A DNA stretch of 64,000 nt from Syntrophaceae bacterium UBA4054 (GCA_002383495.1 DFZO01000050.1:19397-83396), one strand, 5' to 3'; positions 5,323 through 48,623 are shown, numbered from the stretch's first letter. The notes: generated by a model not told the origin, from the letters alone. Made by a program: numbers and translations.

Positions 5323-5601
5323 ATCATTTCCCCTCCATAATAGCGATCCCAATCGTCCGGGCGATCGGACGGGTCATCGTAGCGATAATATATTGAAAAC
5401 ATAGACGTATTAGTTCATTTGAAATCTTATTATCCCCTTGACACGGAGCTTCCGGGTTTGATATTCAGGAGCTACAAAAGATAACTTGGCGAATCAACAG
5501 TTCTTTAAAAGAATGAAACAGGATTGAGCGCCGCATTGTTAAGGCGACCCCGCAGACCGGTATCGTTGCATAGGATCAATCTTTCAAGGAGGGATAGTAT
5601 A

Positions 5602-7107
5602 ATGACACCCGTTCAGCAGAAGATTCGCGACAAGAAAAGGACACCTCAGCAAATTCTGGACATGGTCAAATCCGGGGATTGGATTCAACCCGGCTCTGTC
5701 GGAGGCGACTCGACGGTATGCATGAAGGAACTGGCGAAGAGAATCGGCCCGAACCTGAAAGACATAGAGATCTGGAATTATGCCATGTTTTTCCCCCACC
5801 CCGAATTCCATGCCGTAGACCCCAGGCAGGAATTCCACTGCTTCCATGAATATTTCTTTTTCCCCTGGAACCGCAAGGCCAGAGATACCAACAATGTAAC
5901 GAGCTGGGCGCAATGGGGATGGGCCATGGGCATGTGGTTCTGCCATTACCGCTTTGTCAATGCCGTGAAGGAGAAACGAGGCCTCGACTGGTGGTGGAAC
6001 GCGGCAACGCCCTTCAATGCCCATGGCTTTGCCAATTTCTCTTATGGCACGAATAACGCCAGCATCTTCAGCCAGTGCGCCAAGAAGACCGTCATCGAAG
6101 TCCGCAGCGATTATCCCTGGGCCGAAGGCGGGCGCTTCAACACCATTCACATCGACGATGTTGACTATTGGGTTGAGGTGGACTGCGAAAAATACAAGTG
6201 GCCCCAGATCAACGAAAAGGCCATCAAGGTGAAACCCAATGAGGAAGCCATCGCCAAGCACATCATGTCCATCATGCAAGACCGGGATGTCATCCAGCTC
6301 GGCATCGGCTCCCTCCCCTCCGCCTGCGTCGGAGCCATGGCGGACGCCGGCTTCAAGGATCTCGGAATCCACACCGAGATGCTCAATGCCGGTCTCATCA
6401 AACTGATCGAGTCGGGTCAGGTCACGAATAAGTATAAGACCCTTGATAAAGGCAAGAGTGTCTGGACTTTTTCTTTCCCCTTGGACATGGAGTGGTACTA
6501 TAATACAATCCATCAAAATCAGGAACTCGCTGTCTATGACATCAATTACACCAATAACGTGTATAATCTCACCAGGGTCGACAACATGATCGCCATCGAC
6601 AACTGCGTAGCCGTGGACCTCCTGGGCCAGCAGTGCAGCGGTTTCTATGAAAAACGCCCGATATCGAGTACCGGCGGATATTTCAATTTCGTGACCTTCT
6701 GCGCCCAGTCAAGGGGTGGTCGCAGTGTTGCGTCCATGACGACCCGGAGCAGGCTCGGCACCTCCCGCATTGTTCCCTTTCTGCCTGAAGGGTCCTCGGT
6801 GGATGTCCCGGCTCAGTTCTCCAATTATGTCTGCACCGAATACGGCATCGTGAACCTGAGGGGGCTCAACGGCTACGAAAGGGCCGCGGCACTTATATCC
6901 ATCGCCCATCCCGATGACCGCGAGTGGCTGGAGAAAGAGGCTCGCGAGAATGGTCTCCTTGCTCCGAAATTTCCCGTCTCCATGCTGCCCGTGGAAGGAA
7001 AGACCAGGCGGTATCCCTCCTATACGGATAGAAGAAAGTATAAGATCCCTTACCATGGCGAGATCTGGGGATACGATTGGGAGGATGGCTATCAGTCCGG
7101 AAAGTAA
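5602..7107 (+). CDS. Acetyl-CoA hydrolase/CoA-transferase family I, paralogue 2
   Basis: IQLGIGSLP, GIHTEM, VCTEYGIVN, LISIAHPDDR. ATG 5602 follows AAGGAGG; the ORF-track start 5524 is probably too long. Confidence 0.88.
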   Translation: MTPVQQKIRDKKRTPQQILDMVKSGDWIQPGSVGGDSTVCMKELAKRIGPNLKDIEIWNYAMFFPHPEFHAVDPRQEFHCFHEYFFFPWNRKARDTNNVTSWAQWGWAMGMWFCHYRFVNAVKEKRGLDWWWNAATPFNAHGFANFSYGTNNASIFSQCAKKTVIEVRSDYPWAEGGRFNTIHIDDVDYWVEVDCEKYKWPQINEKAIKVKPNEEAIAKHIMSIMQDRDVIQLGIGSLPSACVGAMADAGFKDLGIHTEMLNAGLIKLIESGQVTNKYKTLDKGKSVWTFSFPLDMEWYYNTIHQNQELAVYDINYTNNVYNLTRVDNMIAIDNCVAVDLLGQQCSGFYEKRPISSTGGYFNFVTFCAQSRGGRSVASMTTRSRLGTSRIVPFLPEGSSVDVPAQFSNYVCTEYGIVNLRGLNGYERAAALISIAHPDDREWLEKEARENGLLAPKFPVSMLPVEGKTRRYPSYTDRRKYKIPYHGEIWGYDWEDGYQSGK

Positions 7108-44332: not shown

Positions 44333-44408
44333 GGGCGATTAGCTCAGTGGATAGAGCACAGGCCTCCGGAGCCTGGTGTCGAGGGTTCAAATCCCTCATC
44401 GCCCTCCA
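44333..44408 (+). tRNA. tRNA-Arg(CCG)
   Basis: GGGCGAT/ATCGCCC acceptor stem, D-loop GGA, anticodon arm CAGGC-CTCCGGA-GCCTG, GGTTCAAATCC T-arm, encoded CCA. Confidence 0.93.
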
Positions 44409-44722
44409 GGTTTTACCTGCCGTTCGGGACGATTGAATCATATCCTGAAATACCTGCCATCCAAGAGTCTGATATCCGCCCGCTCAGTGTTTTATTGCGC
44501 AGCGTATAACAGCCATTAAAATTTGACGAATATTCTTGACTTTAATCTCAGGCAGATAATAATCTATTAAAGAAGATGAGAGGGTATCCTGTTGTTTTAT
44601 AAGATTTTAATCCTTTTACCCGATTGAGGGTTGACATGCGCCCATGACAAGAATCCCGTTGCTGAAAAGAGGACGGGGTTTTTGCGTTTCAAGGACGCCC
44701 GCAACGCCTGGAGAATATCTTC

Positions 44723-45703
44723 ATGAAGAGTGCCGCTGTCTTCTCAACGGGAAGTTATCTTCCGGAGACGATCATTCCAAACGAAGCGCTGACCCAGTTT
44801 TCTCCCGAGGCGCGCCGTCTCATCGGAGAGAAGACGGGGGTTTTTTCAAGAAGATGCGCCTCCGATGATGAATGCACCTCGGATCTGGCCATCAAAGCAG
44901 CTCTCTCCTGTCTTCAGAAGGCCGGCGTCCCGCCTGAGGAAATAGAAGGCATTGTGGTTTCCACGTCCTCGCCCGACCGGATGCAGCCCGCAACGGCGAC
45001 CCGTGTTCAGTATGAGATAGGCGCGAAAAAGGCCTTTGCCTTTGACATCAATTCTGTCTGTTCGGGGGGTTCTTTCGGGATCGAAGTGTCAGATTCTTTC
45101 ATCCGGTCCGGTAAATATGAAAACATTCTTTTGATCGCCGCTGAAATGTACTCGAGGATTCTCAATAAAAAAGATTTTTCCACCTATCCCTTTTTTGGGG
45201 ACGGCGCCGGGGCCGTTCTGTTCCGCGCGGATTCTTCGGGTCAGAGAGGCGTTCTGCATTCATGCCTGGCCACGGATGGAGCCGGAAACAACACTATCTG
45301 CGTACCCGGCGGAGGCACCATGCTGCCCTATGAGAAGATGACCGGTCCCCGCATGGCCTATTTCAGGATGAAGGGGGAGGAGGTTTTTGCCTTTTCCATC
45401 GACAAGGGGCCCAAGGTCATCTCACGGCTCCTCGCGGAGGCCAAGGTGGATATCGCGGCTGTAAAGCGCTTTATCTGTCATCAGGCCAATATCAATATCC
45501 TTCACAGGATCGCGGACATCCTGCATGTGCCCAGGGAGCGATTCCATGTGAATCTTGATCGATACGGCAATACAGCCAGCGCGTCTGTATTGATCGCCCT
45601 CGACGAGGTCCTTTCTAAAGGGATTGCGGCGCCCGGCGACCTGGTAATGCTGGTGACCTTTGGAGGCGGTTTCTCGTGGGGAGCAAATTTACTCCGGATT
45701 TAG
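44723..45703 (+). CDS. fabH: Ketosynthase III family (FabH-like; NphT7/acetoacetyl-CoA-synthase-like motifs)
   Basis: Cys-His-Asn triad (NSVCSG, CHQAN, GNTASAS) and FGDGAGA. Confidence 0.9.
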   Translation: MKSAAVFSTGSYLPETIIPNEALTQFSPEARRLIGEKTGVFSRRCASDDECTSDLAIKAALSCLQKAGVPPEEIEGIVVSTSSPDRMQPATATRVQYEIGAKKAFAFDINSVCSGGSFGIEVSDSFIRSGKYENILLIAAEMYSRILNKKDFSTYPFFGDGAGAVLFRADSSGQRGVLHSCLATDGAGNNTICVPGGGTMLPYEKMTGPRMAYFRMKGEEVFAFSIDKGPKVISRLLAEAKVDIAAVKRFICHQANINILHRIADILHVPRERFHVNLDRYGNTASASVLIALDEVLSKGIAAPGDLVMLVTFGGGFSWGANLLRI

Positions 45704-45732: not shown

Positions 45733-45978
45733 ATGGATGATATTTTTGCAAAGATAAAAAACGGAATCCTGGACCTCTTTCCGGAAATCGGCAGCCTGCC
45801 GATCACGGCGGACACGCGCCTCGGAGAGATACCGGATTTTGATTCCATGGCCGCTGTAAACCTCCAGACTTTTTTGGAGGAAAACTTCCCCTTGAAAATT
45901 CCGCTGGATATGCTGAACGAGGAAACAACCATCGGTGAGCTGGTTGTTCACATTGGGAAATATGTCCGAAAAAAATAA
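45733..45978 (+). CDS. Acyl carrier protein (divergent)
   Basis: 81 aa, acidic, LGEIPDFDSMAAVNL (phosphopantetheine Ser); GGGGAG RBS. Confidence 0.85.
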   Translation: MDDIFAKIKNGILDLFPEIGSLPITADTRLGEIPDFDSMAAVNLQTFLEENFPLKIPLDMLNEETTIGELVVHIGKYVRKK

Positions 45979-47656
45979 GACCGCCCCGGAGACCGGAAGA
46001 GAAGCGGATGTTTTCGGAATTATTCCGGCACTGATCGAAGTCCATCGCTCCTGGATGGAACGCCCGCAGGAATTTGCCCGGATGCGGATGGATCTGATGG
46101 TCCGTCTTGAGGAAGCGGCGCGGGAAGAGATCGCGCGTCTTCTGCCCGCCGATTCCTCGCCTCAGGATCAGGAGGATGGCGCCGTGTCCTTTCTGGACAT
46201 GATGAAAACAGGAGGCCAGCTCGCCAGAAAATATCACGCGATTCATCAGAAATGGCTCAAAGAGTTCATTGAGCAGGCCCAGGGGATGGAGGAGAGAGAA
46301 AGACAGCGCGCCCTTTTCTGGACCCGGCAGTTGATCAACGCCTGCTCGCCGGCGAATTTCTTCTGGACCAATCCCGGGGCCCTTCAGCGGTTCATGGACA
46401 GCTCCGGAGAAAGTCTCATGCGCGGGGTTCAGCGCTTTCATGAGGATCTTCAGCTCGGAAATTTTCTTCTCAGGCTGACGGATGACACGGCATGGAAGAT
46501 CGGAGAGAACATTGCCGCGACGCCCGGCCGCGTCGTATTCCGGAATGAGCTGATGGAGCTGATACAGTATGAGCCGGCGACGAAGAAGACGCTGGCCGTC
46601 CCCGTGGTCTTCATCCAGCCCTGGATCAATAAATTTTACATCTTTGATTTAAACCCGCCCATGAGCTTTGTGGGCTACCTCCGGGATCGGGGGTTCACGG
46701 TGTTCATCATCAGCTGGAAGAATCCGACATCGATGATGCGCCGCGTGACCTTTGAGGATTACATGCTGCAGGGAGCCCTGAAGGCCATAGAAGCGGCCCG
46801 GGATATCTGCCGGTGCGATGCCGTGCATGCGGCGGGTTACTGCATCGGAGGGACCGCGCTGGCGGCTCTCATGGCCTGGTTCAACCGACAGCGTTCCAAA
46901 AGGAAAAAAGCCGTTCCAGTGTCGGACTGGACCTTGTTTTCAACACTGGTGGATTTTTCAGAACCGGGGGACCTGGGCTTTTTCATCACCGAAAAATCCG
47001 TTGCGGCCGTTGAAGAACTGATGGAAGAAAACGGTTATCTGAGCGAGAAGTATATTGAGATGGCCTTTCGCATGCTCGGGTCCGACAGCCTGATCTGGCG
47101 AAATTTCGTTCAAACCTGTCTTTTCGGCGCGGCCCCGCCCAAATCGGATGTCCTCTTCTGGAACAGCGACAGCACCCGGCTGCCGGAGGCCATGTGCGCA
47201 TTCTATCTCCGGGATCTCTATTTGAATAACCGTCTGGCCGAAAAGGATGGTCTCGTTCTGGGCGGTCGTTCCATCGACCTGGGCTGCATCGAACAGCCCC
47301 TTTATGTCGTCGGCACGCAGCTGGATCACATTTGTCCCTGGAAAAGCACGTTTAAAACCTGCAGCCTGGTCGGAGGTCCCGTCCGGTATGTTCTTTCAAG
47401 TGAGGGCCACATAACGGGAATCGTAAACCCGCCTTCCGAGACATCGCGGAGGAGATATTGGGCCGGTGATGCAGCGGGGGAGAGGGATCCGGAAAGCTGG
47501 CTGAGCCGCCAGGAGGAAGGCAGGGGTTCCTGGTGGGAGGACTGGGCCGCGTGGCTGTCCGTCAGGAGCGCGGGTGAGAGACGGACGCCGTCCATGGGAT
47601 CCCGGAAATATCCGCCTCTCGAAAAAGCCCCCGGATCTTACGTCATGGAGCGTTGA
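45962..47656 (+). CDS. phaC: Polyhydroxyalkanoate synthase PhaC (single-subunit class I/II type)
   Basis: SPANFFWTNP, IAATPGRVV, PWINKFYIFDL, GYCIGG (Cys), DHICPW (Asp), GHITG (His), APGSYV. Confidence 0.93.
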   Translation: MSEKNKTAPETGREADVFGIIPALIEVHRSWMERPQEFARMRMDLMVRLEEAAREEIARLLPADSSPQDQEDGAVSFLDMMKTGGQLARKYHAIHQKWLKEFIEQAQGMEERERQRALFWTRQLINACSPANFFWTNPGALQRFMDSSGESLMRGVQRFHEDLQLGNFLLRLTDDTAWKIGENIAATPGRVVFRNELMELIQYEPATKKTLAVPVVFIQPWINKFYIFDLNPPMSFVGYLRDRGFTVFIISWKNPTSMMRRVTFEDYMLQGALKAIEAARDICRCDAVHAAGYCIGGTALAALMAWFNRQRSKRKKAVPVSDWTLFSTLVDFSEPGDLGFFITEKSVAAVEELMEENGYLSEKYIEMAFRMLGSDSLIWRNFVQTCLFGAAPPKSDVLFWNSDSTRLPEAMCAFYLRDLYLNNRLAEKDGLVLGGRSIDLGCIEQPLYVVGTQLDHICPWKSTFKTCSLVGGPVRYVLSSEGHITGIVNPPSETSRRRYWAGDAAGERDPESWLSRQEEGRGSWWEDWAAWLSVRSAGERRTPSMGSRKYPPLEKAPGSYVMER

Positions 47657-47663
47657 ATGCCTT

Positions 47664-48623
47664 ATGGAGGGATCGAACGTCGGACTTGTTTTCCCCGGGC
47701 AGGGTTCTCAGTTTGTCGGCATGGGGGAAGACCTCTACAGGGAAAACGAAATCTTTAAAAAGGTTTTCCACCGCGCCCAGGACATCCTGGAGATGGATAT
47801 GCTGGGCCTCTGGACGAGAGGTCCTCGTGAAACCCTGGATCAGACCCTTTACACGCAGCTGGCCGTCCTGGTCTTTGAGCTGGCGGCCTCTGAGGCTTTC
47901 CGAAAAGAGGTTTCCCTCCGGCCCCGGGTCGCGGCAGGCCACAGCCTTGGCGAGTACAGCGCCATTTATGCCTCAGGTGCGCTGGACATGGAGGCGGTCT
48001 TGAACCTTGTCCGGGTGAGGGCGCAGCGCCACGAGGATGCCGTCCCCGCGGGGACGGGCGCCATGCTGGCCATTCTCGGGCTGGACGGCCGCTCCGTGGA
48101 AAAACTGTGTCTCGCGGCGAGCCGGGAGGGGGAAGAGGTCGATGTGGCCAACCTGAACGCGCCCATCCAGGTGGTTGTTTCGGGACATGTCCGTGCCGTG
48201 GAACGCTTGGCCCGCGCGGCTGAGAAGGCCGGCGCGAAAAAGACGGTCACCCTGCCCATCAGTGTTCCCTGTCATTGCCGGCTGCTCATGACGGCCTCGG
48301 AGCTTTTCGAGGAGAGCCTGAAGCGCGTGTCTTTCAAGTCCTTTCAGATACCGGTGATCCCCAACTGCGATCCAGCCGTCTTCTACACGCCTGAAAACGC
48401 GGCCGGGCTCTTGAAAAGGCAAATCACATCGCCGGTTCGCTGGCAGGAGACCATAGAGAGGATGGGGGCCATGGGCGTCGACACGATTGTGGAAATCGGC
48501 CCCAGAAAAGTCCTCTCCGGGCTCATTAAGAATATTGATCGAAGCATCCGGCTCTTTTATGTCGGGGACGTTTTGTCGCTCCGGAACACGGCCGAAGCGC
48601 TTAGCCTTCCGTCTTCCCAATGA
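47664..48623 (+). CDS. fabD: Malonyl-CoA:ACP transacylase
   Basis: FPGQGSQ, GHSLGEYS, ANLNAPIQVVVSG, VPCHC, EIGPRKVL. Confidence 0.93.
   Translation: MEGSNVGLVFPGQGSQFVGMGEDLYRENEIFKKVFHRAQDILEMDMLGLWTRGPRETLDQTLYTQLAVLVFELAASEAFRKEVSLRPRVAAGHSLGEYSAIYASGALDMEAVLNLVRVRAQRHEDAVPAGTGAMLAILGLDGRSVEKLCLAASREGEEVDVANLNAPIQVVVSGHVRAVERLARAAEKAGAKKTVTLPISVPCHCRLLMTASELFEESLKRVSFKSFQIPVIPNCDPAVFYTPENAAGLLKRQITSPVRWQETIERMGAMGVDTIVEIGPRKVLSGLIKNIDRSIRLFYVGDVLSLRNTAEALSLPSSQ

What the first reader, a model, noticed from the sequence alone, without database searches (positions are those of the whole stretch)
44723..45703. The FabH looks like an NphT7-type acetoacetyl-CoA synthase
Seen: TSSPDRMQPATA, FDINSVCSG and AEMYSRILN. 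Established (recalled, not searched): Streptomyces NphT7 has TSTPDRPQPPTA, FDVNAVCSG and ADLYSRILN, with Gln where E. coli FabH has Phe87, and irreversibly condenses acetyl-CoA with malonyl-CoA. Inference: storage-polymer synthesis is pulled by decarboxylation, which suits an organism whose thiolase must run in the cleavage direction.
Basis: partly seen in the sequence, partly recalled or inferred. Interest (0 to 1): 0.6.

Follow-up and report, generated by a model that had tools for sequence, protein, structure and literature searches.

The report
Carrier-protein-linked KAS III feeding PHA synthase
This FabH-like gene is not the cell's fatty-acid starter enzyme: it is a condensing enzyme with an NphT7-like active-site pocket, fused in an operon to its own small carrier protein, a PHA synthase and a malonyl transferase, so it probably starts storage-polyester synthesis by a decarboxylation-driven step on a carrier protein rather than on CoA.

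Summary
Observation confirmed. All three motifs are present in the 326-aa KAS III. The recalled NphT7 motifs occur in actinomycete KAS III genes that close mevalonate clusters.

Interpretation partly supported.
- The enzyme is not a canonical FabH. It scores below the TIGR00747 cut-off and lacks the invariant ACP-docking Arg249.
- It is missing from 16 of 26 related genomes and always lies beside phaC, with one exception.
- It shares 10 pocket-lining signature residues with NphT7-like enzymes, including Gln at Phe87. It shares 4 with canonical FabH.

Three things argue against a CoA-only NphT7-type enzyme.
- A small carrier-protein gene follows it in 12 of 12 relatives and in the nearest outgroup loci. 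No such gene follows any of 61 NphT7-like genes.
- A malonyl-specific FabD paralogue closes the operon.
- The CoA-adenine site (Thr28, Trp32, Arg151) is gone; NphT7-like enzymes keep Trp32 and Arg151.

Phylogeny gives a robust separate clade. It is only weakly sister to the NphT7 group, and an AU test does not reject a canonical-FabH sister.

Best reading: a dedicated acetoacetyl-carrier-protein synthase for PHB. The decarboxylative-pull idea stands. "Acetoacetyl-CoA synthase" probably does not.

An earlier first-reader note in this scan covers the same operon.

The parts
44333..44408 (+). tRNA-Arg (CCG). It marks the upstream boundary, between the MTHFR gene and the operon.
   Evidence: ARAGORN
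44536..44563 (+). Promoter-like site, TTGACT-16-AATAAT, a candidate operon promoter. Weak evidence only.
   Evidence: Consensus scan matched 10 of 12 positions. The region has 3 such sites against 2.6 expected by chance.
44723..45703 (+). KAS III (FabH-family) condensing enzyme, 326 aa, with triad Cys113-His253-Asn283. It has an NphT7-like pocket (Ser82, Gln88, Tyr143, Ile192, Phe214). Leu33 and Phe152 stand where FabH and NphT7 have the CoA-adenine sandwich Trp32 and Arg151. Asn258 stands where FabH has ACP-docking Arg249.
44963..44998 (+). Motif TSSPDRMQPATA (residues 81-92), containing Gln88, which aligns with E. coli FabH Phe87
45041..45067 (+). Motif FDINSVCSG (residues 107-115), containing the active-site Cys113
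45140..45166 (+). Motif AEMYSRILN (residues 140-148), containing Tyr143, which aligns with E. coli FabH Leu142
45733..45978 (+). Dedicated carrier protein, 81 aa, with the phosphopantetheine-site motif DFDSM (Ser38). A GGGGGAG ribosome-binding site lies upstream. The gene starts 30 nt after the KAS III stop codon.
   Evidence: PF00550 scores 25.1 against a cut-off of 20.8. Asp-Ser is invariant in 15 homologues. The sequence is shown. A carrier gene is present after the KAS III in 12 of 12 Syntrophales loci.
45962..47656 (+). PHA synthase PhaC (class I-like, 564 aa). Its start overlaps the end of the carrier gene by 17 nt.
   Evidence: PF07167. TIGR01838 scores 536.7 bits, below the 622.65 cut-off. 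Start position.
47664..48623 (+). FabD paralogue (malonyl-CoA:ACP transacylase), starting 7 nt after the phaC stop codon. It keeps Gln11, Ser92, Arg117, His201 and Gln250.
   Evidence: TIGR00128 scores 306.3 against a cut-off of 260.9. Residues. The housekeeping fabD is elsewhere, on C47.

Best explanation
The gene encodes a dedicated, non-housekeeping KAS III. It performs the decarboxylative Claisen condensation that starts short-chain PHA (PHB) synthesis.

Proposed sequence of steps:
1. The operon's FabD paralogue loads malonate from malonyl-CoA onto the operon's own 81-aa carrier protein.
2. The KAS III condenses an acetyl primer with this malonyl-carrier protein. The primer would fit a small NphT7-like pocket (Gln88, Tyr143, Phe214). 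The product is acetoacetyl-carrier protein plus CO2.
3. A FabG-type reductase makes (R)-3-hydroxybutyryl-carrier protein.
4. The monomer reaches PhaC either directly or after transfer to CoA.

Shown:
- gene order and its conservation;
- an intact catalytic triad;
- the pocket signature shared with NphT7;
- loss of both the FabH-type AcpP-docking patch and the CoA-adenine site;
- strict co-occurrence with phaC.

Inferred:
- the substrates;
- the source of the primer, which could be acetyl-CoA bound without the adenine site, or acetyl formed by decarboxylating a second malonyl-carrier protein;
- the reductase;
- how PhaC receives the monomer.

The likely carrier, however, is a protein and not CoA.
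For: **Operon**
- The order is KAS III, carrier, PhaC, FabD paralogue, with a 30-nt gap, a 17-nt overlap and a 7-nt gap.
- The order KAS III-carrier-PhaC is kept in 11 of 11 Syntrophales loci. The FabD paralogue directly follows in 7 of them. One relative inserts a FabG-type reductase (NF006072 309.8 against cut-off 298; its PhaB-model scores are lower).

**Accessory, PHA-linked distribution**
- This KAS III type is in 10 of 26 related genomes and PhaC is in 9.
- All 9 PhaC-bearing genomes have the two genes adjacent. None of the 16 genomes without this KAS III has PhaC.
- Complete genomes lack both.

**Carrier pairing is older than the PhaC link**
- The nearest outgroup members (P0123, P0126, P0134) sit in sugar or polysaccharide loci. 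Each is followed by a homologous Asp-Ser carrier ORF.
- Controls for a carrier ORF within 600 nt downstream: 0 of 61 NphT7-like genes and 0 of 30 canonical Desulfobacterota fabH. The count is 2 of 3 for Streptomyces fabH, where acpP is known to follow.

**Residues**
- Cys, His and Asn are invariant.
- The window clade has Leu/Met at Trp32, Phe/Tyr at Arg151 and Glu at Thr28. These residues hold the CoA adenine in E. coli FabH (PMC4606726). Of the 66 NphT7-like sequences, 66 keep Trp32 and 65 keep Arg151; at the Thr28 position their consensus is Val.
- The FabD paralogue keeps the malonyl-binding Arg117 and the catalytic Ser92 and His201.

**Genome content**
- There is no PhaB over the cut-off. 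The best reductase match is the housekeeping FabG.

**Complex prediction: weak support only**
- Two KAS III copies plus the carrier scored 0.54, against a best control of 0.00.
- The mark was reached by 58 of 80 solved complexes and 2 of 110 mismatched pairs. At 0.60 or under it was reached by only 7 of those 80, and by both mismatches that passed.
- The runs agree in at least 83% of contacts, and the partner's pLDDT is at least 82.
- Solved ketosynthase-ACP complexes may exist, so the pass may be from memory.
Against: - No biochemical data exist for any member of this clade.
- The canonical ACP-docking residues Arg249, Lys214, Lys256 and Lys257 are all absent. This is also true of NphT7, which (recalled from Okamura et al. 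2010, not read here) does not use malonyl-ACP. The carrier does differ from AcpP: the position of AcpP Glu41 is a nearly invariant Asn. A different docking mode is therefore plausible, but it is unproven.
- ML trees place the clade next to the NphT7 group, although weakly.
- Loss of the CoA-adenine site leaves the acetyl primer source unexplained.
- No reductase is encoded in this window's operon.
- Two relatives (L208, L210) lack the FabD paralogue directly after phaC.
- Whether any PhaC accepts acyl-carrier-protein thioesters is unknown.
Confidence: 0.55

Rival explanations
1. One reading: a true NphT7-type acetoacetyl-CoA synthase. It would condense acetyl-CoA with malonyl-CoA to free acetoacetyl-CoA, which a reductase and PhaC then use. 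The carrier protein and the FabD paralogue would serve some other step.
For: - The window clade shares 10 signature positions with NphT7-like enzymes: Lys36, Ser81, Arg85, Gln87, Asn109, Val111, Tyr142, Ile189, Phe205 and Phe215. It shares 4 with canonical FabH.
- ACP-docking Arg249 is lost in both.
- ML trees put the clade sister to the NphT7-containing group: FastTree 0.91, quick tree SH-aLRT 80, careful tree 52/87.
- A natural cluster elsewhere reads SDR-PhaC-KAS III-SDR-PHB depolymerase, with no carrier and with Trp32, Arg151 and Gln87 kept. It shows that CoA-type KAS III genes can be wired to PhaC.
Against: - Thr28, Trp32 and Arg151 of the CoA-adenine site are replaced across the clade, whereas Trp32 and Arg151 are kept in NphT7-like enzymes.
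- An adjacent carrier gene is present in 12 of 12 relatives, against 0 of 61 NphT7-like genes.
- A malonyl-specific FabD paralogue would be superfluous if malonyl-CoA were used directly.
- There is no PhaB equivalog.
- The in-operon reductase of a relative is FabG-like.
- Sisterhood to NphT7 is not significant (p-AU 0.374 for the alternative).
Confidence: 0.2
2. An ordinary housekeeping FabH that starts fatty-acid synthesis and merely sits next to phaC.
For: - It is the best FabH-model match in the genome (NF006829 314.7 against cut-off 249).
- The housekeeping fabD-fabG-acpP-fabF cluster on C47 has no fabH.
Against: - It scores below the TIGR00747 cut-off (275.9 against 292.1). Canonical FabH of the phylum scores 340-470.
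- It lacks Arg249, which is invariant in 34 of 34 canonical FabH, and also lacks Lys214, Lys256 and Lys257.
- It is not found in 16 of 26 related genomes, including several that are 99-100% complete. It co-occurs with PhaC.
- In a careful tree its clade is separate from the canonical clade, with support 98/92.
Confidence: 0.05
3. A KAS III-like acyltransferase rather than a condensing enzyme. For example, it could shuttle 3-hydroxybutyryl or acetyl groups between the carrier protein and CoA, or prime PhaC.
For: - KAS III-fold acyltransferases exist; ChlB3 (7eqi) appears among the PDB matches.
- FabH has a known transacylase side activity that has been exploited for PHA monomer supply in engineered E. 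coli (PMC3896788, plus recalled literature).
Against: - The full Cys-His-Asn decarboxylative triad and the Phe304-Gly305-Gly306 motif are invariant in 131 clade members.
- A malonyl-specific FabD paralogue in the operon implies a malonyl extender.
Confidence: 0.1

Closest known systems
NphT7 acetoacetyl-CoA synthase (Streptomyces sp. CL190; EC 2.3.1.194). Here represented by syntenic orthologues L074:5648-6628 and L078:3479-4459.
   Same: - KAS III fold with the Cys-His-Asn triad.
- Shared pocket signature (Ser81, Gln87, Tyr142, Ile189, Phe205 and flanks).
- No Arg249.
- Nearly identical scores against FabH models (283-286 against 276 bits for TIGR00747).
- Probably the same chemistry: acetyl plus malonyl gives acetoacetyl plus CO2.
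- An irreversible alternative to thiolase.
   Different: - About 39% identity.
- The CoA-adenine residues Trp32 and Arg151 are lost here.
- A dedicated carrier protein and a FabD paralogue are in the operon. No carrier gene lies next to any of the 61 NphT7-like genes with enough downstream sequence.
- It feeds PhaC rather than HMG-CoA synthase.
- The sister relationship is not statistically supported.
Canonical FabH (E. coli FabH, PDB 1HN9/1HND; TIGR00747)
   Same: - Fold and catalytic triad.
- Malonyl-thioester decarboxylative condensation with a short primer.
- Probably a carrier-protein-bound extender.
   Different: - Lacks the AcpP-docking basic patch and the CoA-adenine site.
- Has a small Gln/Tyr/Phe pocket.
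- Not in the fab cluster and not universally present.
- Linked to phaC and to a private carrier protein that is 23% identical to E. coli AcpP.
Type II PKS initiation modules such as R1128 ZhuH (KS III, PDB 1MZJ), ZhuG (priming ACP) and ZhuC (acyltransferase homologue). Recalled from the literature.
   Same: The architecture matches: a KAS III, a dedicated small carrier protein and a FabD-like acyltransferase together make a short beta-ketoacyl-carrier protein that is handed to another synthase.
   Different: - The recipient here is a PHA synthase, not a ketosynthase-chain length factor pair.
- ZhuH is a more distant sequence relative (1mzj E 8.7e-37, against 8e-60 for the best FabH structures).
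- No aromatic polyketide genes are present.
Thiolase/PhaB route (PhaA-PhaB-PhaC) and the PhaG route to PHA
   Same: They supply (R)-3-hydroxyacyl monomers to PhaC. The PhaG route also draws on carrier-protein-bound intermediates.
   Different: - No phaA or phaB is in the operon, and no PhaB equivalog is in the genome.
- The condensation is decarboxylative and costs one ATP per malonyl-CoA (the ATP cost is from general knowledge, not tested here).
- The carrier is private rather than the fatty-acid AcpP.

Membership tests
NphT7-type acetoacetyl-CoA synthase | KAS III fold with Cys-His-Asn triad | tested here: met
   Cys113, His253 and Asn283 are invariant in 131 clade members. Pfam ACP_syn_III and ACP_syn_III_C both match.
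NphT7-type acetoacetyl-CoA synthase | Pocket signature: Gln at E. coli FabH Phe87, with Ser81, Tyr142, Ile189 and Phe205 | tested here: met
   The same residues occur in 66 of 66 NphT7-like sequences and in at least 128 of 131 window-clade sequences. They are rare in the 34 canonical FabH.
NphT7-type acetoacetyl-CoA synthase | CoA-nucleotide binding residues kept (Trp32, Arg151), as expected for an enzyme with two CoA substrates | tested here: not met
   NphT7-like sequences have Trp in 66 of 66 and Arg in 65 of 66. The window clade has Leu/Met and Phe/Tyr. The role of these residues comes from PMC4606726.
NphT7-type acetoacetyl-CoA synthase | Works without a carrier protein; genomic partners are CoA-dependent enzymes (HMG-CoA synthase) | tested here: not met
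   A carrier ORF lies downstream in 12 of 12 Syntrophales loci and in 0 of 61 NphT7-like loci. A FabD paralogue is in the operon.
NphT7-type acetoacetyl-CoA synthase | Forms one clade with characterised NphT7 to the exclusion of FabH | tested here: inconclusive
   It is sister to the NphT7 group in FastTree (0.91), the quick tree (SH-aLRT 80) and the careful tree (UFBoot 52, SH-aLRT 87). The AU test does not reject a window-plus-canonical clade (delta lnL 3.8, p 0.374).
NphT7-type acetoacetyl-CoA synthase | Uses malonyl-CoA, not malonyl-ACP; releases acetoacetyl-CoA; no thiolysis | not testable with these tools
   This needs an enzyme assay.
Canonical FabH (TIGR00747) | Score above the curated cut-off | tested here: not met
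   It scores 275.9 against a cut-off of 292.1. The broader subfamily model NF006829 is passed (314.7 against 249). Canonical FabH of the phylum scores 340-470 bits.
Canonical FabH (TIGR00747) | AcpP-docking basic patch (Arg249, Lys214, Lys256/257) | tested here: not met
   Arg249 is present in 34 of 34 canonical sequences and is Asn here. Residue 214 is Ala and residues 256/257 are Asp/Ile. The docking role is recalled from Zhang et al. 2001 and was not read here.
Canonical FabH (TIGR00747) | Housekeeping distribution and fab-cluster context | tested here: not met
   It is not found in 16 of 26 relatives and lies next to phaC. The fab cluster on C47 lacks it.
KAS III priming module with a dedicated carrier protein (ZhuH/ZhuG/ZhuC-like architecture) | KAS III encoded with its own small carrier protein and a FabD-like acyltransferase | tested here: met
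KAS III priming module with a dedicated carrier protein (ZhuH/ZhuG/ZhuC-like architecture) | Physical and functional use of that carrier by the KAS III | tested here: inconclusive
   - Gene pairing is conserved across contexts.
- Complex prediction gave weak support only: 0.54 against a best control of 0.00.
- The mark was reached by 58 of 80 solved complexes and 2 of 110 mismatches. At 0.60 or under it was reached by 7 of those 80 and by both mismatches that passed.

The most novel reading that the evidence does not exclude
Syntrophales run a PHB pathway that needs neither thiolase nor PhaB and takes place wholly on a private carrier protein. In this reading the FabD paralogue loads malonate, and this KAS III makes acetoacetyl-carrier protein, possibly from two malonyl units with no acyl-CoA bound in the classical way. 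FabG reduces it, and PhaC polymerises directly from (R)-3-hydroxybutyryl-carrier protein. This would be the first PHA synthase shown to use an acyl-carrier-protein substrate. The KAS III-carrier pair would be an ancient C4-acyl donor module, shared with sugar N-acylation loci.
Probability: 0.25. Interest if true: 0.85.

Novelty: new variant of a known kind. Interest (0 to 1): 0.6.

Why it matters
PHB synthesis is textbook thiolase-reductase-synthase chemistry on CoA. A natural route that starts with a decarboxylating KAS III on a private carrier protein would have three consequences.
- It would explain how syntrophs, whose thiolases are poised for cleavage, can still store carbon.
- It would give a natural counterpart to the engineered NphT7-based PHB and butanol pathways.
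- It would raise the testable question of whether a PHA synthase can accept carrier-protein thioesters.

The finding also shows that motif likeness to NphT7 does not by itself predict CoA use. The adenine-site residues and an adjacent carrier gene separate the two kinds.

Tried and rejected
- **Large trees.** The careful IQ-TREE of 101 rows did not finish in 947 s. The AU test on that set was abandoned after 574 s. Both were replaced by a 46-row careful tree and AU test.
- **Strict diagnostic columns.** With both reference groups at least 80% conserved and different, there was no bias: 3 NphT7-like, 4 canonical, 5 neither. The looser signature count was more informative.
- **Paper searches.** Searches for PHA in Syntrophus, for 3-hydroxybutanoyl sugar pathways with KAS III and ACP, for FabH Arg249/Glu41 docking and for NphT7 pocket mutants found nothing usable.
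- **Other look-ups.** The listing of cluster members gave no taxonomy for the outgroup representatives. P0130, P0187 and P0129 had uninformative or very short contigs.
- **Malonyl-CoA supply.** An AccA-type carboxyltransferase was not found with TIGR00513, although four biotin carboxylases exist. The source of malonyl-CoA was not pursued.
- **Housekeeping-FabH reading.** Rejected on distribution and residues.

Full report
**Observation**

The ORF at window 44723-45703 (+) encodes a 326-aa KAS III (Pfam ACP_syn_III plus ACP_syn_III_C). The three quoted motifs are present at residues 81-92, 107-115 and 140-148.

A back-translated PDRPQPPTA pattern found many actinomycete KAS III ORFs that also carry FDVNAVCSG and YSRILN. 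In Streptomyces lactacystinicus (L074) and a Kitasatospora (L078) the gene closes a cluster of diphosphomevalonate decarboxylase, phosphomevalonate kinase, HMG-CoA reductase and HMG-CoA synthase. This is the published position of nphT7. [quoted passage not shown] The recalled comparison is therefore correct.

**What surrounds the gene**

- A tRNA-Arg lies upstream, at 44333-44408.
- Thirty nucleotides after the KAS III stop codon, behind a GGGGGAG ribosome-binding site, an 81-aa ORF (45733-45978) passes the Pfam PP-binding threshold. It has the Asp-Ser phosphopantetheine motif.
- phaC starts at 45962, inside the end of the carrier gene, and ends at 47656.
- Seven nucleotides later a FabD paralogue begins, at 47664. 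It passes the fabD equivalog cut-off and keeps Gln11, Ser92, Arg117, His201 and Gln250. It therefore looks like a working malonyl-CoA:ACP transacylase.
- The housekeeping fabD-fabG-acpP-fabF cluster is on another contig and has no fabH.
- A second, more divergent KAS III lies in a separate cluster with a FabD-like gene, an acyl-CoA dehydrogenase, a FabA-like gene, a FabZ-like gene and a FabF-like gene.

**Is it the housekeeping FabH?**

No, on three grounds.
- Across the phylum, canonical FabH scores 340-470 bits against TIGR00747 in 74 of 81 genomes. This protein scores 275.9, below the cut-off.
- Among 26 related (Syntrophales) genomes, this KAS III type is found in 10 and PhaC in 9. In all 9 PhaC-bearing genomes the two genes are adjacent, and none of the 16 genomes without this KAS III has PhaC. 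One genome has the KAS III-carrier pair alone. Several 99-100% complete genomes lack both, while most keep the divergent second KAS III.
- Gene order KAS III-carrier-PhaC holds in 11 of 11 loci. The FabD paralogue follows directly in 7. One relative has a FabG-type reductase inserted.

**Is it NphT7-like?**

At the pocket, yes. The window clade (131 sequences) and the NphT7-like set (66) share a conserved residue that is rare in canonical FabH at 10 alignment positions. These include Ser81, Gln87, Tyr142, Ile189 and Phe205 (E. coli numbering) and the flanks of the catalytic Cys. The reverse holds at only 4 positions. Both groups lack Arg249, which is invariant in 34 of 34 canonical FabH.

Overall identity is uninformative (about 39% to NphT7 orthologues and up to 41% to Desulfobacterota FabH). 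NCBIfam models score NphT7 orthologues and this protein almost alike.

The trees agree on a robust separate clade for this protein and its relatives (UFBoot 98, SH-aLRT 92). All three ML or approximate-ML trees place that clade next to the NphT7-containing group, but weakly: FastTree 0.91, SH-aLRT 80, then 52/87 in the careful tree. Forcing it together with canonical FabH costs only 3.8 log-likelihood units (p-AU 0.374). The positive claim of NphT7 kinship is not established either.

**Why probably not a CoA-only enzyme**

1. *The CoA-adenine site is gone.* In E. coli FabH the CoA adenine hydrogen-bonds Thr28 and stacks between Trp32 and Arg151 (PMC4606726). NphT7-like enzymes keep Trp32 (66 of 66) and Arg151 (65 of 66). 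The window clade has Glu, Leu/Met and Phe/Tyr at these positions. Its nearest outgroup representatives also lack Trp32 and Arg151. The flanking anchors (TG-x-x-x-RR and FGDGAGA) make these alignments unambiguous.
2. *The carrier gene travels with the KAS III, not with PhaC.* Outgroup members P0123, P0126 and P0134 lie in sugar or polysaccharide loci (FdtA, DegT aminotransferase, hexapeptide acyltransferase, flippase). Each is followed by a 77-88-aa ORF that aligns with the window's carrier, including the invariant Asp-Ser. By contrast, 0 of 61 NphT7-like genes and 0 of 30 canonical Desulfobacterota fabH have a carrier ORF within 600 nt downstream. Streptomyces fabH, where acpP is known to follow, served as a positive control (2 of 3).
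3. *A malonyl-specific FabD paralogue in the operon has no obvious role if malonyl-CoA is used directly.*
4. *There is no PhaB equivalog.* The best acetoacetyl-thioester reductase candidates are FabG-like.
5. *A complex prediction gave weak support only.* Two KAS III copies plus the carrier scored 0.54, against a best control of 0.00. The mark was reached by 58 of 80 solved complexes and 2 of 110 mismatches. At 0.60 or under it was reached by only 7 of those 80 and by both mismatches that passed. The runs agree in at least 83% of contacts and the partner's pLDDT is at least 82. The pass may reflect memory of solved ketosynthase-ACP complexes.

A suggestive detail concerns docking. The KAS III position of Arg249 is a nearly invariant Asn. 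The carrier position that aligns with AcpP Glu41 is also a nearly invariant Asn. From memory, Glu41 is the proposed partner of Arg249 in Zhang et al. 2001; I did not read that paper here. This would fit a re-made, less electrostatic docking pair, but it is inference.

**Mechanism proposed**

1. The FabD paralogue loads malonate on the private carrier.
2. The KAS III condenses an acetyl unit with it, releasing CO2 and giving acetoacetyl-carrier protein.
3. A FabG-type reductase gives the (R)-3-hydroxybutyryl thioester.
4. PhaC polymerises it, either directly or after transfer to CoA.

The small shared pocket argues for a C2 (perhaps C3) primer and a C4 (C5) product. The primer source is open because the adenine site is missing. 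That idea does not depend on the carrier.

**Comparison with known systems**

- The chemistry is most like NphT7.
- The architecture (KAS III plus private carrier plus FabD-like acyltransferase) is most like type II polyketide initiation modules such as ZhuH/ZhuG/ZhuC (recalled). ZhuH is a more distant sequence relative.
- I found no paper describing a KAS III-carrier-PhaC operon. Engineered uses of FabH and NphT7 for PHA are known.
- An earlier first-reader note of this scan (e1-5252120) describes the same FabH-ACP-PhaC-FabD operon.

**Verdict**

This is a new variant of a known kind: a PHA-dedicated, carrier-protein-coupled KAS III with an NphT7-like pocket. All functional statements are predictions from sequence, context and phyletic pattern.

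Noticed in passing
Metagenome contigs carrying P0167 and P0274 (no DNA was available; gene tables): A KAS III on the NphT7 side of the tree keeps Trp32, Arg151 and Arg249 and has Gln87. It sits in a cluster SDR-PhaC(410 aa)-KAS III-SDR-PHB depolymerase, with no carrier protein and no FabD. This looks like a natural, genuinely CoA-type 'NphT7 for PHB' arrangement in an unidentified organism.
   Followed up: partly
L201:464-2264, L202:400-5438, L204:4994-8221: The nearest outgroup KAS III genes are each followed by a homologous Asp-Ser carrier ORF. They lie in sugar or polysaccharide loci (FdtA, DegT aminotransferase, hexapeptide acyltransferase, flippase, glycosyltransferase). This suggests a KAS III-carrier module that donates a short acyl group, possibly 3-oxo- or 3-hydroxybutanoyl, for aminosugar N-acylation.
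   Followed up: partly
G000 contig C53:70451-76566 (L002, L031), outside the window: - A second, divergent KAS III (30% identity; it keeps Trp32 and Arg151 but has Gly at Arg249) lies in a cluster of FabD-like, acyl-CoA dehydrogenase, KAS III, FabA-like, FabZ-like and FabF-like genes.
- This type is present in about 20 of 26 Syntrophales genomes searched.
- No canonical FabH (at least 340 bits) was found in any of the 26, against 74 of 81 genomes across the phylum.
- How this order starts fatty-acid synthesis is unclear.
   Followed up: partly
L207 (G006:C24) and L208 (G006:C81): One relative carries two copies of the KAS III-carrier-PhaC unit on different contigs. One copy has the FabD paralogue. 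The other does not, and is followed instead by a weak second PhaC-like hit.
   Followed up: no
L213 (G003:C9:6400-9400): In a 70%-complete relative, both the KAS III and phaC are split into two frames. This is either pseudogenisation or assembly error.
   Followed up: no
L212 (G014:C92), KAS III 5687-6673(-) and carrier 5396-5674(-): One relative keeps the KAS III-carrier pair without any PhaC in the genome. Its neighbours are uninformative (a radical SAM/B12 protein, MipA and a 2Fe-2S thioredoxin-like protein).
   Followed up: partly
Whole genome G000: No AccA-type carboxyltransferase was found with TIGR00513, although four biotin carboxylase genes exist, one of them over the AccC cut-off. 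Malonyl-CoA may come from a PccB-type acyl-CoA carboxylase.
   Followed up: no
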